Origin: Escherichia coli
Lineage (GTDB): Bacteria; Pseudomonadota; Gammaproteobacteria; Enterobacterales; Enterobacteriaceae
DNA length: 64,000 nucleotides
Assembly: GCF_048403405.1 (NCBI RefSeq)
Contig: NZ_CP183129.1
Reading direction: 5' to 3' (one strand)
A program made the translations under genes and the position numbers. The notes under the pieces were generated by a model. That model saw only the letters and a program-made list of their open reading frames with translations. It did not search any database and was not told the DNA's origin. Within the stretch, counting starts at the first letter, position 1. Every line of letters starts with the position of its first letter. Positions 24,334-37,779 of this stretch are shown here, piece by piece.

Positions 24334-24386
24334 CGGCGGCAGAGCAGTCACGGAGTAAAACTGATACCGCCAAACGTCACCAGAAA
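24334..24386 (-). ncRNA. dicF: DicF small regulatory RNA (antisense inhibitor of ftsZ mRNA)
   Basis: Minus strand reads ...UUUCUGGUGACGUUUGGCGGUAUCAGUUUUACUCCGUGACUGCUCUGCCGCCG followed by a U tract, matching my recollection of the 53-nt DicF sequence except at the last two bases. Confidence 0.8.
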
Positions 24387-28688: not shown

Positions 28689-29714
28689 ATGCACATTTTA
28701 TCTGTTTCAAAAAAGGAAGTTGGAAGAGCTGGGGATAGATTAGTTTCTCAGTTTGGTACAGGTGAAAAATATAAAGAGGAAGATGTACAAATTCTTCATG
28801 AGTGGAGGATGTTGCATTTATATCCTTTAAGTAAAATACAATTTTATATGGAAAGAGAGGCTATTTCCTTAAACAAAAATGCGTTACTATCCTCTAGAAT
28901 TAAGAGGATGCCTTCCATTGTTACTAAGCTTTCTAGATTTCCTGATATGAAGTTAAATAAGATGCAGGATCTTGGTGGGTGCCGGGCTATTTTAAATAAT
29001 CTGGATCAAGTGTATGATTTAGTTAATAAAATAAAATCATCTAAATTCTCACATGAACTAGTTAGAATGGATGATTACATGATAGACGTGAAAGATTCTG
29101 GTTATAGAAGCTTTCATATGGTCTATTCATTCCAAAATAAAAAATTTCCATCTTTAAATGGGTTGCGCATTGAAATGCAAATAAGAACAGCTATTCAACA
29201 TAGCTGGGCTACAGCAGTTGAAATGGTTGGTTTGTTTCGAAAGGAATCATTGAAATCTGGTTTTGGTGATGCAAGATGGCTTAGGTTTTTTGAATTGGTA
29301 TCAGAGCTTTTTTATAAACTTGAGTATGAAAAAGAACCATCTGGGAGTTATATAAAAATATCAGAAGAATTAAGTTATTTATCCGTCGAGTTGAATGTTT
29401 TCGATATATTAGCTGCTTACAATGCCGTAGTTAGCCATATTGAGGGTAGCAAAAAATATGATAAAGGACTTTGCATAATTGTTGTTGATACCATAAAGCG
29501 GAATATAAATATAAAGAGCTTCGAAAATCACAATCATGCGAAGGCGGCAGAAGCTTATGTCGAGTCTGAAAAATACTGCGCGGAAAATAAAGGCTGTGAA
29601 GTGGCTATGGTTTCTGTTAGTTCAATTAGTGAATTAAAAAATGCATATCCTGCTTACTTTTTAGATACGAAAACTTTTTTAAATTATCTCAGTAGGTATG
29701 TTTTTATAAAATAA
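28689..29714 (+). CDS. RelA/SpoT-domain nucleotidyltransferase (small-alarmone-synthetase / toxSAS-like) with uncharacterised C-terminal domain
   Basis: 341 aa. All synthetase-fold motifs present in order: RIKRMPSIVTK, DLGGCRAIL, YRSFHMVY, EMQIRTAIQHSWATAVE. C-terminal ~150 aa unrecognised. The gene lies in a conspicuously AT-rich island. Confidence 0.8.
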   Translation: MHILSVSKKEVGRAGDRLVSQFGTGEKYKEEDVQILHEWRMLHLYPLSKIQFYMEREAISLNKNALLSSRIKRMPSIVTKLSRFPDMKLNKMQDLGGCRAILNNLDQVYDLVNKIKSSKFSHELVRMDDYMIDVKDSGYRSFHMVYSFQNKKFPSLNGLRIEMQIRTAIQHSWATAVEMVGLFRKESLKSGFGDARWLRFFELVSELFYKLEYEKEPSGSYIKISEELSYLSVELNVFDILAAYNAVVSHIEGSKKYDKGLCIIVVDTIKRNINIKSFENHNHAKAAEAYVESEKYCAENKGCEVAMVSVSSISELKNAYPAYFLDTKTFLNYLSRYVFIK

Positions 29715-30448
29715 AAAATGTTATCTGGAGTGGTCTGAATTCTACTAACTTAGTTTTTTCAGACCGCTTCTGACCACAATGGCCTGTGAGGTTCTGCTGC
29801 TAGTCAACATAAAATAACAAAGCCGGCAGGTGGTGGTTGTTGTAAAGTTATTCAATGACATTCATGGAGGCTTAAGCGAATTATTTGTCCCTGGTCGGTA
29901 TGGTGGCAACAGCTTGTTGCGAGAATTTGGCTAATTTGGACTGACTTCCGCTCCTTGCTCAAAGCGGACTAGAAGGTTAGCTTGTGTCGGACTTTGCGTA
30001 TTAAAAGAAGTGCTGGTGGTGACTAGTGGTTGAGCCCCATTTCCACAGAAAAAATCAGAGAAACTATACCCAATAGTTGTATTGAATCACTGACGAGACA
30101 GCCTCATATTCATCAGGACTGGTGTACGTCCAATACAGGAGGTTGTGGTGCTGGTTCTCAAATGTGCGCTGGCTATTACGGCTGTAATGGCGATTTATTG
30201 TCTTGCTATTGTTCTTATGGATCGCCTTTCTGACTGATTTCATATTGGCGAGGTAAAGGTAGTTAAGTAGAATGGCTGCGGGTGCTTGAGGCTATCTGCC
30301 TCGGGCATGAACACCAAAGGCAGATAGAGAAAAGCCCCAGTTAACATTACGCGTCCTGCAAGACGCTTAACATTAATCTGAGGCCAATTTCATGCTAGAC
30401 ACATGTAGGTTAGCCTCTTACGTGCCGGAAGGCAAGGAGAAGCAGGCT

Positions 30449-30604
30449 ATGAAGCAGCAAAAGGCGATGTTAATCGCCCTGATCGTCATCTGTTTAACCG
30501 TCATAGTGACGGCACTGGTAACGAGGAAAGACCTCTGCGAGGTACGAATCCGAACCGGCCAGACGGAGGTCGCTGTCTTCACAGCTTACGAACCTGAGGA
30601 GTAA
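30449..30604 (+). CDS. hokD: Hok/Gef-family membrane toxin (type I toxin)
   Basis: 51 aa, MKQQKAMLIALIVICLTVIVTALVTRKDLCEVRIRTGQTEVAVFTAYEPEE; embedded in a longer mok-like upstream ORF (30392..). Confidence 0.85.
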   Translation: MKQQKAMLIALIVICLTVIVTALVTRKDLCEVRIRTGQTEVAVFTAYEPEE

Positions 30605-30672
30605 GAGACCCGGCGAGGGAGAAATCCCTCGCCACCTCTGATGTGGCAGGCATCCTCAACGCACCCGCACTT

Positions 30673-30699
30673 AACCCGCTTCGGCGGGTTTTTGTTTTT
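30673..30699 (+). terminator. intrinsic terminator downstream of hok
   Basis: AACCCGCTTCGGCGGGTT hairpin followed by TTTTGTTTTT. Confidence 0.7.
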
Positions 30700-30820
30700 A
30701 TTTTCAACGCGTTTGAAGTTCTGGACGGTGCCGGAATAGAATCAAAAATACTTAAGTAGCGCGCAGGGATAAGAGGGATGGTCCCTTAAAGGGGAGAGCT
30801 AATTATCCGGAAGAATTCTG

Positions 30821-31072
30821 ATGATGAACATCGAAGAACTGCGTAAAATTTTTTGTGAAGATGGCCTCTATGCTGTGTGCGTTGAAAATGGAAATCTTGT
30901 TAGTCATTACCGCATTATGTGTTTGCGAAAGAATGGGGCTGCGTTAATTAATTTTGTGGATGGTCGAGTGACAGACGGATTTATCTTGCGCGAAGGTGAG
31001 TTTGTCACTTCATTACAGGCACTGAAAGAGATCGGAATAAAAGCAGGCTTTTCAGCTTTTGCAGAAGAATAA
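30821..31072 (+). CDS. hypothetical 83-aa protein (position and length of Qin rem)
   Basis: 83-aa ORF with RBS; between hok and the DUF968 gene, as rem is in Qin. Confidence 0.5.
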   Translation: MMNIEELRKIFCEDGLYAVCVENGNLVSHYRIMCLRKNGAALINFVDGRVTDGFILREGEFVTSLQALKEIGIKAGFSAFAEE

Positions 31073-33589: not shown

Positions 33590-33909
33590 TTCCTGTCATT
33601 TTAGGGGACAGAAAAACTCCTTAATACTGATAACCTGGTGCACCATACACACGTTCCTGGAGAAAACTACTTTTTTGATAGGGTTGAAGGTGGCTGGATG
33701 TCTAAAATAAACATTGCTTCATATGTTCAACTATGAGTTAATGACTGCGTCGGTTTGAAGAACAGACGATATACGAAGTAGTTTACTAAAGCAGTTCTCA
33801 TTTCAGGTGTTATTCACTTATTCCTTCTTTGAGTCTCTCCAATTAAGTACGAAGTCGTTTCTGTTATGCAAACCATTTATGCCGAAAGGCTCAAGTTAAG
33901 GAATGTAGA

Positions 33910-34125
33910 ATGTCAAATAAAATGACTGGTTTAGTAAAATGGTTTAACGCTGATAAAGGTTTCGGCTTTATTTCTCCTGTTGATGGTAGTAAAGATGTGT
34001 TTGTGCATTTTTCTGCGATTCAGAATGATAATTATCGAACCTTATTTGAAGGTCAAAAGGTTACCTTCTCTATAGAGAGTGGTGCTAAAGGTCCTGCAGC
34101 AGCAAATGTCATCATTACTGATTAA
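33910..34125 (+). CDS. cspB: cold-shock protein (CspA family)
   Basis: 71 aa, [38 protein letters not shown]... with RNP1/RNP2 motifs; long 5' leader typical of csp genes. Confidence 0.8.
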
Positions 34126-34406
34126 AATTCATCGCTCGTCTGTATACGATAACGAAGAAGGCTGATGCCTGAGTAGAGATACGGACAGAGTAGTGAATAT
34201 TGGATCTCTTTAATAAAAAGTAAGGAGGTCCAATACATGAAACAATGGCCAGCATATTTGGCAAAATCTTAATCAGGAAAAGTATGCTAACCATTGTGGT
34301 GAAGTGCAGGTTTGCTGCATGAATAGTTTCACAGCAGAAGCTAACTGCTGGCATCGCAAAACAAAGTGCGTAAGTGGATGACTCCCACAAAAAGCACCAC
34401 AATCTC

Positions 34407-36999: not shown

Positions 37000-37362
37000 A
37001 TTAATATTAAATCGGATTATTTTTAGCGCTGAATGTGAAATTTAAATAAAAAGGACTCTTCCATGAGTCAAAATCCTTGAAATCTTAAGGGTAAGATAAA
37101 AGGTCATTAGACAGAATGACACGTTTTATTAATAAATAAAGCTATTGTTTCATTCGTGTGTTTTTCTTTACAAAAGTAATCCTTGCTATGGTTGGTTAAT
37201 CATGCGTTAATGGTGTTCTGGTTTGTTACAAAATTATCTGAAGCAGTCATTGTTATAATTTTATTATTTGTACCTCTTGAGATTTCCTTGTTGGTTTTTC
37301 TCTCTGATATTTTTTTTCGGACCATTCTGCCCAAGGGCTAACTTCTTCAAAAGGTAATAATG

Positions 37363-37575
37363 ATGTCTAACAAAATGACTGGTTTAGTGAAATGGTTTAA
37401 CCCTGAAAAAGGTTTTGGTTTCATCACGCCGAAAGATGGTAGCAAAGATGTGTTTGTCCATTTCTCAGCTATTCAGAGCAACGATTTCAAAACGTTAACT
37501 GAGAATCAGGAAGTCGAATTTGGTATTGAGAACGGACCTAAAGGCCCCGCGGCTGTTCATGTTGTGGCACTTTGA
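37363..37575 (+). CDS. cold-shock protein (CspA family; cspI-like position after the lysis cassette)
   Basis: [45 protein letters not shown]... Confidence 0.8.
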
Positions 37576-37779
37576 GGTAGATAATATTACAAACCATATT
37601 CACTTTAGATGCCCGTGTTGCCATGGTTCTCAGTATAGAACATCATCTTTTGATGTTTCTGACAGGAATCCTTTCGGGGCAAAATGTATCTTTTGTAAAT
37701 CAATGATGATTACATTTGATAATATTTCACAATACTTAAATGTTAGCCGTCTATCGTTAGATTTAAGAAAGTGAAAATG

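What the first reader, a model, noticed from the sequence alone, without database searches (positions are those of the whole stretch)
30250..30700. hok/mok/sok type I toxin-antitoxin locus
The Hok toxin ORF is embedded in a longer upstream in-frame ORF (mok-like) and followed by a strong terminator. The roughly 150-bp leader upstream should encode the antisense Sok RNA on the minus strand.
Basis: established knowledge. Interest (0 to 1): 0.3.

Follow-up and report, generated by a model that had tools for sequence, protein, structure and literature searches.

The report
Intact prophage hok/mok/sok toxin-antitoxin locus
This is an ordinary, already catalogued hok/mok/sok type I toxin-antitoxin cassette (the complete form of E. 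coli hokD) inside a Qin-like prophage, with every regulatory RNA element of the textbook system present.

Summary
Window 30245-30699 holds a complete hok/mok/sok cassette. The hok ORF (30449-30604, 51 aa) is identical to K-12 HokD/RelF. An in-frame mok ORF starts at 30392. An intrinsic terminator lies at 30673-30699. A 169-nt leader matches the Rfam hok-leader model at 117 bits. A Sok gene lies on the minus strand (30400 to about 30330), and its -35 and -10 hexamers are identical to those of the experimentally validated sokW of phage 933W/Sp5. Folding reproduces the R1 switch: in the full-length mRNA tac pairs with fbi and ucb hides the mok SD, and after 3' trimming tac pairs with ucb and a Sok-target hairpin forms. 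K-12 hokD is the 5'-truncated remnant of this locus, with relE replacing everything upstream of position 30434. The window is E. coli strain 104, and NCBI's pipeline already annotates the gene as hokD. Identical DNA occurs in many E. coli genomes. Two refinements apply. The Rfam family named 'sok' models the hok-sense leader, not Sok itself. Among loci with 100% identical Hok, the short patch bound by the Sok 5' tail is by far the most variable part of the transcript, with 18 alleles. Sok expression and toxin activity in this strain were not testable. Novelty: already known. Interest: low.

The parts
30245..30273 (+). hok promoter: -35 TTGGCG (30245-30250), 17-bp spacer, -10 TAGAAT (30268-30273)
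   Evidence: Consensus scan, 9 of 12 matches. The -10 is TAGAAT in 8 of 9 related loci and TACAAT in the IncY plasmid copy.
30280..30697 (+). Full-length hok mRNA, about 418 nt. The TSS is inferred from position 1 of the Rfam model; the 3' end is at the terminator.
   Evidence: Rfam model position 1 aligns to 30280. MFE is -176 kcal/mol with z=-7.5.
30280..30291 (+). tac element (GGGUGCUUGAGG), the 5' end of the hok mRNA
   Evidence: It pairs with 30654-30666 in the full-length MFE and with 30332-30338 in 3'-truncated RNAs. It is invariant in 72 related loci, entropy 0.00.
30292..30327 (+). 5' hairpin enclosed by the tac stem
   Evidence: Present in the MFE structures and in the Rfam consensus structure.
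30332..30338 (+). ucb (anti-SD, AAGCCCC). It pairs with the mok SD in full-length RNA and with tac in truncated RNA.
30330..30400 (-). Sok antisense RNA gene, about 71 nt: 5' end at 30400, 3' end at about 30330-30324. It has a 15-nt single-stranded 5' tail, a long hairpin and a UUUU tail.
   Evidence: The ends are mapped by homology to the annotated sokW of 933W. The fold is -28.7 kcal/mol with z=-5.1. Expression was not tested here.
30407..30435 (-). Sok promoter: -35 TTGCCT (30435->30430), 17-bp spacer, -10 TAACCT (30412->30407), TSS at 30400
   Evidence: Both hexamers and the discriminator are identical to sokW, with one spacer difference. The sokW promoter was shown to be functional by -10 mutation (PMC8621323). 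Column entropy is 0.01-0.03 bits across 72 loci. The generic promoter scan did not report it, because the -10 matches only 3 of 6.
30380..30383 (+). mok Shine-Dalgarno (GAGG), 8 nt before the mok ATG
   Evidence: Read from the sequence. It pairs with ucb in full-length RNA and with dcb in truncated RNA.
30392..30604 (+). mok ORF, 70 aa, in frame with hok
   Evidence: ORF list. The arrangement is the same as the annotated mokC and mokW.
30385..30406 (+). Sok-recognition patch: the target of the Sok 5' tail, including the hairpin loop CUAGACA (30395-30401, which contains a YUNR motif)
   Evidence: Fold of the truncated RNA. It is the most variable part of the transcript among relatives.
30413..30417 (+). 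dcb (GCCUC), which pairs with the mok SD in the truncated, Sok-accessible conformation
   Evidence: The hairpin is kept in all 18 alleles examined.
30434..30439 (+). hok Shine-Dalgarno (AAGGAG). It overlaps the Sok -35 hexamer on the opposite strand.
   Evidence: Read from the sequence.
30449..30604 (+). hok toxin ORF, 51 aa. The DNA is identical to K-12 hokD (relF).
   Evidence: Pfam HOK_GEF 1.2e-23. The CDS is identical to b1562. PGAP annotates it as hokD.
30587..30590 (+). UACG at the Tyr47 codon. This is a candidate TadA A-to-I editing site (Tyr to Cys).
   Evidence: Read from the sequence. K-12 hokD mRNA, whose CDS is identical, is reported as 6% edited (PMC12214031). Not tested here.
30612..30633 (+). 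3'-UTR hairpin (9-bp stem). It is the likely 3' end-protecting stem of the processed mRNA.
   Evidence: MFE structures. The role is inferred from R1 (PMC9841398).
30654..30666 (+). fbi element (CCUCAACGCACCC), complementary to tac
   Evidence: It forms a 12-bp 5'-3' helix in the MFE. The same helix with compensatory changes is found in hokB and R1-type hok.
30673..30699 (+). Intrinsic terminator (7-bp GC-rich stem, loop TTCG, T-run)

Best explanation
This is a structurally complete hok/mok/sok type I toxin-antitoxin module of the hokD/hokW subtype. It sits in a full-length Qin-like lambdoid prophage of E. coli strain 104.

Proposed mechanism, inferred from R1 hok/sok and from the anatomy shown here:

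1. A sigma-70 promoter (30245-30273) makes a hok mRNA of about 418 nt.
2. In this full-length RNA the 5' tac element pairs with the 3' fbi element, and ucb sequesters the mok SD. The RNA is then neither translated nor bound by Sok.
3. Slow 3' trimming removes fbi, probably back to the 30612-30633 hairpin.
4. tac then re-pairs with ucb. The mok SD moves into a hairpin with dcb, which presents the mok start and a YUNR loop.
5. A convergent promoter inside mok makes the 71-nt Sok RNA constitutively. Its single-stranded 5' tail binds that loop and the mok start. This blocks mok translation, and with it the coupled hok translation, and marks the duplex for RNase III.
6. If Sok synthesis stops, the stable hok mRNA pool is translated and the 51-aa Hok peptide depolarises the inner membrane. 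Loss or excision of the prophage, or prophage induction as shown for sokW, would stop it.

Shown here: every sequence element, the predicted alternative folds, homology and conservation. Inferred: transcription, 3' processing, toxicity in this strain and the biological role (prophage retention and/or assistance of lysis).
For: Toxin and leader:
- Hok matches Pfam HOK_GEF at 1.2e-23 and PHROG 'MokW-like host killing' at 2.8e-33.
- The leader matches Rfam RF01794 at 117 bits.

Predicted folds:
- The full-length MFE contains the 12-bp tac/fbi helix and the ucb/SD-mok pairing.
- RNAs ending at 30640-30650 switch to tac/ucb and SD-mok/dcb.
- The tac/fbi helix recurs in hokW, in hokB (two compensatory pairs) and in R1-type hok.
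- The fold z-scores are -7.5 for the mRNA and -5.1 for Sok.

Sok:
- The Sok promoter hexamers are identical to sokW.
- sokW is expressed from its own promoter, neutralises HokW and is lost on mitomycin C treatment (PMC8621323).
- The Sok position and strand agree with the annotated sokW, sokC, sokB and sokE.

Context and conservation:
- The CDS is identical to K-12 hokD, whose product is toxic on overexpression (bioRxiv 10.1101/2025.08.07.668861).
- PGAP annotates the gene as hokD, and 3927 of 5426 complete E. coli genomes hold at least 80% of the locus.
- Functional elements are near-invariant across 72 loci: tac 0.00 bits, dcb/Sok -10 0.03 bits, Sok -35/hok SD 0.01 bits.
Against: - There is no expression data for this strain.
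- The Sok -10 (TAACCT) is a weak consensus match, and the generic scan missed it.
[quoted passage not shown] An intact structure therefore does not guarantee activity.
- One truncation end-point (30636) did not give the switched fold in the MFE prediction.
- The tac/3'-UTR duplex energy alone is not exceptional against shuffled UTRs (39 of 500 did as well).
Confidence: 0.9

Rival explanations
1. The locus is structurally intact but physiologically silent. It would be a conserved chromosomal or prophage hok/sok copy that never releases Hok under natural conditions, so it behaves as a relic rather than a working addiction or lysis module.
For: The native chromosomal hokA, hokB and hokC loci that were tested did not mediate PSK or respond to rifampicin (summarised in bioRxiv 10.1101/2025.08.07.668861). 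All K-12 hok loci other than hokB are considered inactivated (PMC12214031). The Sok -10 deviates from consensus.
Against: None of the inactivating lesions seen in K-12 is present, neither an IS insertion nor the leader truncation. The near-identical hokW-sokW locus is active and affects phage release (PMC8621323). Regulatory elements are invariant across 72 loci while neighbouring positions vary, which indicates continuing selection.
Confidence: 0.15
2. This is a K-12-type hokD remnant: a toxin ORF without antitoxin RNA, expressed only as the tail of an upstream operon, as relF is in relBEF.
For: The hok CDS and 3' UTR are identical to K-12 hokD except for one base.
Against: Identity with K-12 stops 14 nt upstream of the ATG. 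The window instead carries the full 169-nt leader with promoter, tac, ucb, mok and Sok, about 93% identical to hokW. The upstream gene is 530 bp away and is not relBE.
Confidence: 0.01
3. The Sok RNA is the plus-strand feature that Rfam reports at 30280-30454, that is, a 175-nt sense sRNA.
For: Rfam RF01794 is named 'sok antitoxin', and its hit is on the + strand.
Against: The model consensus starts with the hok mRNA 5' end and ends at the hok AUG. In K-12 and 933W the same model hits the strand of hokC, hokB, hokE and hokW. The curated sokC, sokB, sokE and sokW features lie on the opposite strand inside that hit. The minus-strand Rfam hit here scores 20 bits, which is noise.
Confidence: 0.02

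Closest known systems
hokW-mokW-sokW of Stx2 phage 933W / Sakai prophage Sp5 (Takada et al. 2021, PMC8621323)
   Same: About 93% nucleotide identity over the locus. Hok is identical at 47 of 51 residues. Both have a 169-nt leader and an identical tac/fbi helix. Both have an in-frame 70-aa mok, identical Sok -35 and -10 hexamers, and the same extended Sok hairpin.
   Different: The first 16 nt of Sok, its recognition tail, differ at 6 positions. The sequence 3' of fbi differs, and 933W lacks the AACCCGC...GCGGGTT terminator. The C-terminal four Hok residues differ. The two loci occupy different places in the phage genome.
E. coli K-12 hokD (relF), Qin cryptic prophage
   Same: The hok CDS is identical, and the 3' UTR is identical except at position 30616. 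Both have the same downstream neighbours, rem-ydfU-ydfT.
   Different: K-12 lacks everything upstream of 30434: the hok promoter, tac, ucb, the mok start and the whole Sok gene. relE abuts the hok SD instead. The window holds the complete form of which K-12 keeps a remnant.
hok/sok (parB) of plasmid R1
   Same: The regulatory logic and set of elements are the same: tac/fbi, ucb, dcb, mok coupling, and a Sok RNA with a 5' tail and a terminator hairpin (PMC9841398). The Sok promoter has the same layout (TTGCGC-17-TATCCT in R1-type against TTGCCT-17-TAACCT here, read).
   Different: HokW, 47/51 identical to this Hok, shares 44% identity with R1 Hok (PMC8621323). Sok here is about 71 nt, with a 16-nt GC-rich insertion at the top of its hairpin relative to the Rfam consensus. 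R1 is plasmid-borne and this locus is prophage-borne.
hokC (gef)/mokC/sokC of E. coli K-12
   Same: mok is in frame and shares the hok stop codon. The leader matches the same Rfam model at 118 bits. The Sok position and start sequence are the same (GUUCAGCAU... against GUCUAGCAU...).
   Different: The K-12 hokC 3' end is cut by IS186 20 bp after the stop codon. sokC is 59 nt and lacks the hairpin extension.

Membership tests
[quoted passage not shown] | A Hok/Gef toxin ORF of about 50 aa | tested here: met
   Pfam PF01848 at 82.9 bits against a cut-off of 22, E=1.2e-23. PHROG 251 at 2.8e-33. NCBIfam Hok subfamily at 48.5 bits, which is below its curated cut-off of 73. PGAP nevertheless names the gene hokD.
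[quoted passage not shown] | An overlapping mok reading frame with its own SD, starting upstream of hok and running across the hok start | tested here: met
   The ORF is at 30392-30604, with GAGG 8 nt upstream. In relatives with identical Hok, mok is in frame (70 aa), in the +1 frame (68 aa), or a 19-aa ORF ending in an ATGA overlap. It always crosses or abuts the hok start.
[quoted passage not shown] | A cis-encoded antisense Sok RNA gene with its own promoter, complementary to the mok translation-initiation region | tested here: met
   The promoter TTGCCT-17-TAACCT and TSS 30400 are identical in both hexamers to the experimentally active sokW (PMC8621323). The position matches the annotated sokW, sokC, sokB and sokE. 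Tested in silico only.
[quoted passage not shown] | Long-range tac/fbi 5'-3' pairing that closes the full-length mRNA | tested here: met
   A 12-bp helix, 30280-30291 with 30654-30666, is in the MFE and centroid structures. It is conserved with compensatory changes in hokB and R1-type hok.
[quoted passage not shown] | A ucb/SD-mok to tac/ucb plus SD-mok/dcb conformational switch after 3' truncation | tested here: met
   The switch is predicted for 3' ends at 30640, 30645 and 30650, but not at 30636. The leader structure matches the Rfam covariance model.
[quoted passage not shown] | [quoted passage not shown] | not testable with these tools
   This needs northern blots or a rifampicin chase. 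For sokW, partial dependence on RNase III and Hfq has been reported (PMC8621323).
[quoted passage not shown] | Hok toxicity and post-segregational or induction-triggered killing | not testable with these tools
   The identical HokD peptide is reported as toxic on overexpression (bioRxiv 10.1101/2025.08.07.668861). The native locus of this strain has not been tested.
hokD orthologue (Qin prophage position) | The same protein and the same prophage neighbourhood as K-12 b1562 | tested here: met
   The CDS is 100% identical. Downstream are rem, ydfU and ydfT, and the prophage lies next to rspAB as Qin does.

The most novel reading that the evidence does not exclude
The 20-22 nt patch where the Sok 5' tail first contacts hok mRNA (30385-30406) may be under diversifying selection. 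Prophage-borne hokD-type cassettes that encode the very same toxin would then carry many mutually orthogonal antitoxin 'specificities', 18 alleles among 72 loci. This would stop a resident Sok from neutralising, or being exploited by, an incoming or co-resident copy. A related possibility is that the unannotated 30-aa membrane peptide ORF immediately upstream (30145-30237) travels with the cassette as a functional partner.
Probability: 0.3. Interest if true: 0.35.

Novelty: already known. Interest (0 to 1): 0.1.

Why it matters
This matters little as a discovery. The gene is already annotated as hokD, the DNA is identical in many sequenced E. coli genomes, and its 93%-identical sister locus hokW-sokW has been characterised experimentally.

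It is still useful in three ways:

- It shows what the intact ancestor-like form of the much-cited K-12 hokD/relF remnant looks like.
- It warns that the Rfam 'sok' family marks the hok leader on the sense strand, so the antitoxin RNA goes unannotated here.
- It gives a clean data set, with an identical toxin and many variants of the Sok recognition patch, for anyone studying the specificity and cross-talk of type I antitoxins.

Tried and rejected
- **Generic promoter scan for Sok.** It found no minus-strand promoter, because the -10 TAACCT matches only 3 of 6. I located the promoter instead by homology with sokW, sokB and R1-type loci.
- **Reading the Rfam '+ strand sok' hit as the antitoxin.** Rejected after the orientation test on K-12 and 933W.
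- **Duplex-energy shuffle test for tac against the 3' UTR.** On its own it is not significant (39 of 500), so I relied on positional conservation and compensatory changes instead.
- **Sub-threshold Rfam hits.** isrK at 25.7 bits against 50, rsmX, ceN48 and the minus-strand sok hit at 20 bits. I treated them as chance or as generic hairpin similarity.
- **K-12-type remnant hypothesis.** Rejected.
- **Homology search for the 30-aa upstream peptide.** Pfam, PHROGs, NCBIfam and PADLOC gave nothing for it.
- **First Python scripts.** They failed on file names or regular expressions and were rerun.
- **A coordinate error.** This is corrected in entry 3 and in this report.

Full report
**Where the window comes from**

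A 461-bp query (30240-30700) matched E. coli strain 104 chromosome NZ_CP029164.1 at 3240240-3240700 with 100% identity. The window is therefore 3210001-3274000 of that record. NCBI's annotation there shows a complete-looking lambdoid prophage beside rspAB. It runs from integrase and excisionase through dicB/DicF, a cI/cro-like pair and replication genes. After those come a RelA/SpoT-domain gene, hokD, rem, ydfU, ydfT(Q), cspB/cspI, lysis genes, terminase, head and tail genes, and ydfK. This is the full-length counterpart of the cryptic prophage Qin of K-12, which carries hokD in the same rem-ydfU-ydfT neighbourhood.

- The ORF list gives a 70-aa ORF at 30392-30604. Its last 51 codons, from the ATG at 30449, are the Hok peptide MKQQKAMLIALIVICLTVIVTALVTRKDLCEVRIRTGQTEVAVFTAYEPEE.
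- Hok matches Pfam HOK_GEF at E=1.2e-23 and PHROG 251 'MokW-like host killing' at 2.8e-33.
- A terminator lies at 30673-30690 followed by a T-run. A promoter-like site, TTGGCG-17-TAGAAT, lies at 30245-30273.
- The region 30280-30454 matches Rfam RF01794 at 117.1 bits against a gathering score of 59, E=5e-26.

**What the Rfam hit really is**

The family is called 'sok antitoxin', but the hit is on the + strand. The model consensus begins with the hok mRNA 5' end (GGGUGCUUGA...) and ends at the hok AUG.

I tested the orientation on loci with curated Sok features. In K-12 hokC, hokB and hokE and in phage 933W, the model always hits the hok strand. The annotated sokC, sokB, sokE and sokW lie inside that hit on the opposite strand. 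RF01794 is therefore a model of the hok leader. The hit is strong evidence for the leader's sequence and structure, not a map of Sok.

**Locating Sok**

The locus is about 93% identical to hokW/mokW/sokW of phage 933W. In that phage sokW is annotated as a 71-nt minus-strand RNA overlapping the mokW start. Transferring those ends gives Sok = 30400 -> 30330:

GUCUAGCAUGAAAUUGGCCUCAGAUUAAUGUUAAGCGUCUUGCAGGACGCGUAAUGUUAACUGGGGCUUUU

- It folds into a 15-nt single-stranded 5' tail, one long hairpin and a U-tail. The energy is -28.7 kcal/mol with z=-5.1, and 0 of 200 shuffles did as well.
- On the minus strand, upstream of the TSS, lie -35 TTGCCT (30435->30430), a 17-bp spacer, -10 TAACCT (30412->30407) and 6 nt to the TSS.
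- Both hexamers and the discriminator are identical to sokW, with one difference in the spacer.
- The generic scan missed this promoter because the -10 matches only 3 of 6.
- The layout is the same as sokB (TTGCCG-17-TAAGAT) and R1-type sok (TTGCGC-17-TATCCT), read.
- Takada et al. showed that sokW transcribed from its own promoter neutralises HokW, and that mutating the -10 abolishes this. Protection partly needs RNase III and Hfq (PMC8621323).

**The mRNA switch**

I folded 30280-30697 as the full-length RNA.

- *Full-length RNA.* The fold has MFE -176 kcal/mol with z=-7.5. It contains a 12-bp helix between the extreme 5' end (tac, 30280-30291) and 30654-30666 (fbi). The mok SD (30380-30384) is paired to 30334-30338 (ucb).
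- *Truncated RNA.* Ending the RNA at 30640, 30645 or 30650 changes the prediction. tac then pairs with ucb (30332-30338). The mok SD pairs with GCCUC at 30413-30417 (dcb). This forms a hairpin whose loop CUAGACA (30395-30401) contains a YUNR motif and is complementary to the Sok 5' end. An end at 30636 did not switch.
- *Agreement with R1.* This is the closed-to-open scheme described for R1 hok (PMC9841398).
- *Conservation of tac/fbi.* The helix is found at the same relative place in hokW. It also occurs in hokB, with two compensatory pairs (U7-A to C7-G and G12-C to A12-U), and in an R1-type plasmid locus.
- *A weak test.* A simple duplex-energy shuffle test was weak on its own (39 of 500). 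The argument rests on position and covariation.

**Relation to K-12 hokD**

The hok CDS is identical to b1562, and the 3' UTR differs at one base (30616). Identity stops 14 nt upstream of the ATG, at 30434, where K-12 continues into relE. K-12 hokD therefore has no hok promoter, tac, ucb, mok start or Sok. This agrees with the published view that it was inactivated by rearrangement (PMC12214031). The window carries the intact form.

That form is the common one. 3927 of 5426 complete E. coli genomes hold a place covering at least 80% of the 461-bp query. It also occurs in temperate phages (mEp460, HannyBb, Evi, Tritos, Stx phages) and on P1-like IncY plasmids.

**Variation among relatives**

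*Nine hand-picked hokD/hokW-type loci.* These have 92% mean identity. 14 of the 22 columns at 30385-30406 vary, against 63 of 367 in the rest of the transcript (Fisher p=4e-6). The sample is small and non-independent.

*Eighty IMG/VR loci with Hok 100% identical to this one.* These are the best 80 of at least 574 hits.

- 72 have the full leader, 4 have the K-12 relE junction, 2 share another junction, and 2 did not match my tac pattern.
- Column entropy is 0.00 bits at tac, 0.03 at dcb/Sok -10 and 0.01 at Sok -35/hok SD.
- Entropy peaks at 0.95 bits at 30390-30399.
- There are 18 alleles of the SD-mok to dcb hairpin, and all keep the hairpin (-10.3 to -14.7 kcal/mol).
- mok is plastic. It is in frame at 70 aa in most loci, as here. 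It is in the +1 frame at 68 aa in a few. In 16 loci it is a 19-codon ORF whose stop overlaps the hok start (ATGA).

I draw two inferences. The Mok amino-acid sequence is probably irrelevant, and only translation into the hok start seems to matter. The Sok-contact patch appears free, or driven, to diversify. Specificity between hok/sok family members is a known principle, so I treat this as a refinement, not a new kind of system.

**Likely role**

By analogy the cassette either penalises loss of the prophage or, as shown for hokW-sokW, is triggered on induction and advances lysis and phage release (PMC8621323). The prophage here looks complete, so either role is possible. I could not discriminate between them.

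The main rival reading is that the locus is intact but never fires. The native chromosomal hokA, hokB and hokC loci were reported not to mediate PSK. The invariance of the regulatory elements argues for continuing selection against that reading.

**Verdict**

The locus is a fully equipped member of a well-known system, already annotated as hokD. Its closest characterised relative is hokW-sokW. Novelty: already known. Interest: low.

Noticed in passing
window 30145-30237 (+), within the conserved block 29957-30245: There is an unannotated 30-aa hydrophobic ORF (MVLVLKCALAITAVMAIYCLAIVLMDRLSD). It has a GTG start and an AGGAGG SD, and it ends 8 nt before the hok -35. The ~290-bp block around it is 88-99% conserved in about 1700 E. 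coli genomes and 4 phages, just upstream of hok in the loci examined, though one genome has the block without hok. Substitutions among five copies are mostly synonymous or conservative. No family hit was found in Pfam, PHROGs, NCBIfam or PADLOC.
   Followed up: partly
window 28689-29714 (+): A 341-aa RelA/SpoT-domain protein (Pfam PF04607, 4e-18) matches the PADLOC candidate defence family PDC-S33 at 5e-119 and PHROG 4773. It occupies the slot that holds relBE in K-12. Other prophages have an FRG-domain protein, a SAM methyltransferase, a YfgM-like protein or a hypothetical protein there. The slot looks like a variable defence/moron hotspot abutting hokD.
   Followed up: partly
window 30385-30406: The Sok-tail/target patch is the most variable part of the transcript among loci with 100% identical Hok: 18 alleles, with an entropy peak of 0.95 bits. 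The mok frame and length vary as well (70 aa in frame, 68 aa in the +1 frame, or 19 aa with an ATGA overlap).
   Followed up: yes
window 30280-30454; also L004, L005, L007, L001: Rfam RF01794, 'sok antitoxin (CssrC)', is oriented as the hok mRNA leader and not as Sok. Annotations transferred from it would put the antitoxin on the wrong strand with the wrong length. The PGAP record for this genome lists no Sok RNA in the region shown.
   Followed up: yes
window 30587-30590: The Tyr47 codon of hok lies in a UACG motif, the TadA A-to-I editing context. Editing would recode Tyr to Cys. K-12 hokD mRNA, whose CDS is identical, is reported as 6% edited (PMC12214031).
   Followed up: no
window 30613-30694 (+): There is a sub-threshold Rfam match to isrK, a Salmonella Hfq-binding sRNA (25.7 bits against a gathering score of 50). 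It covers the two hok 3'-UTR hairpins. It is probably only generic hairpin/terminator similarity.
   Followed up: no
window 24334-24385 (-); 33749-34141 (+); 37205-37621 (+): A DicF sRNA and two cspA-type thermoregulator leaders are present; the first lies immediately upstream of annotated cspB, the second is about 400 nt downstream of cspI (not checked). This is consistent with a Qin-like prophage.
   Followed up: no
window 30713-30742 (+): A promoter-like site, TTGAAG-18-TAGAAT, lies directly after the hok terminator and about 80 nt upstream of rem (30821-31072).
   Followed up: no
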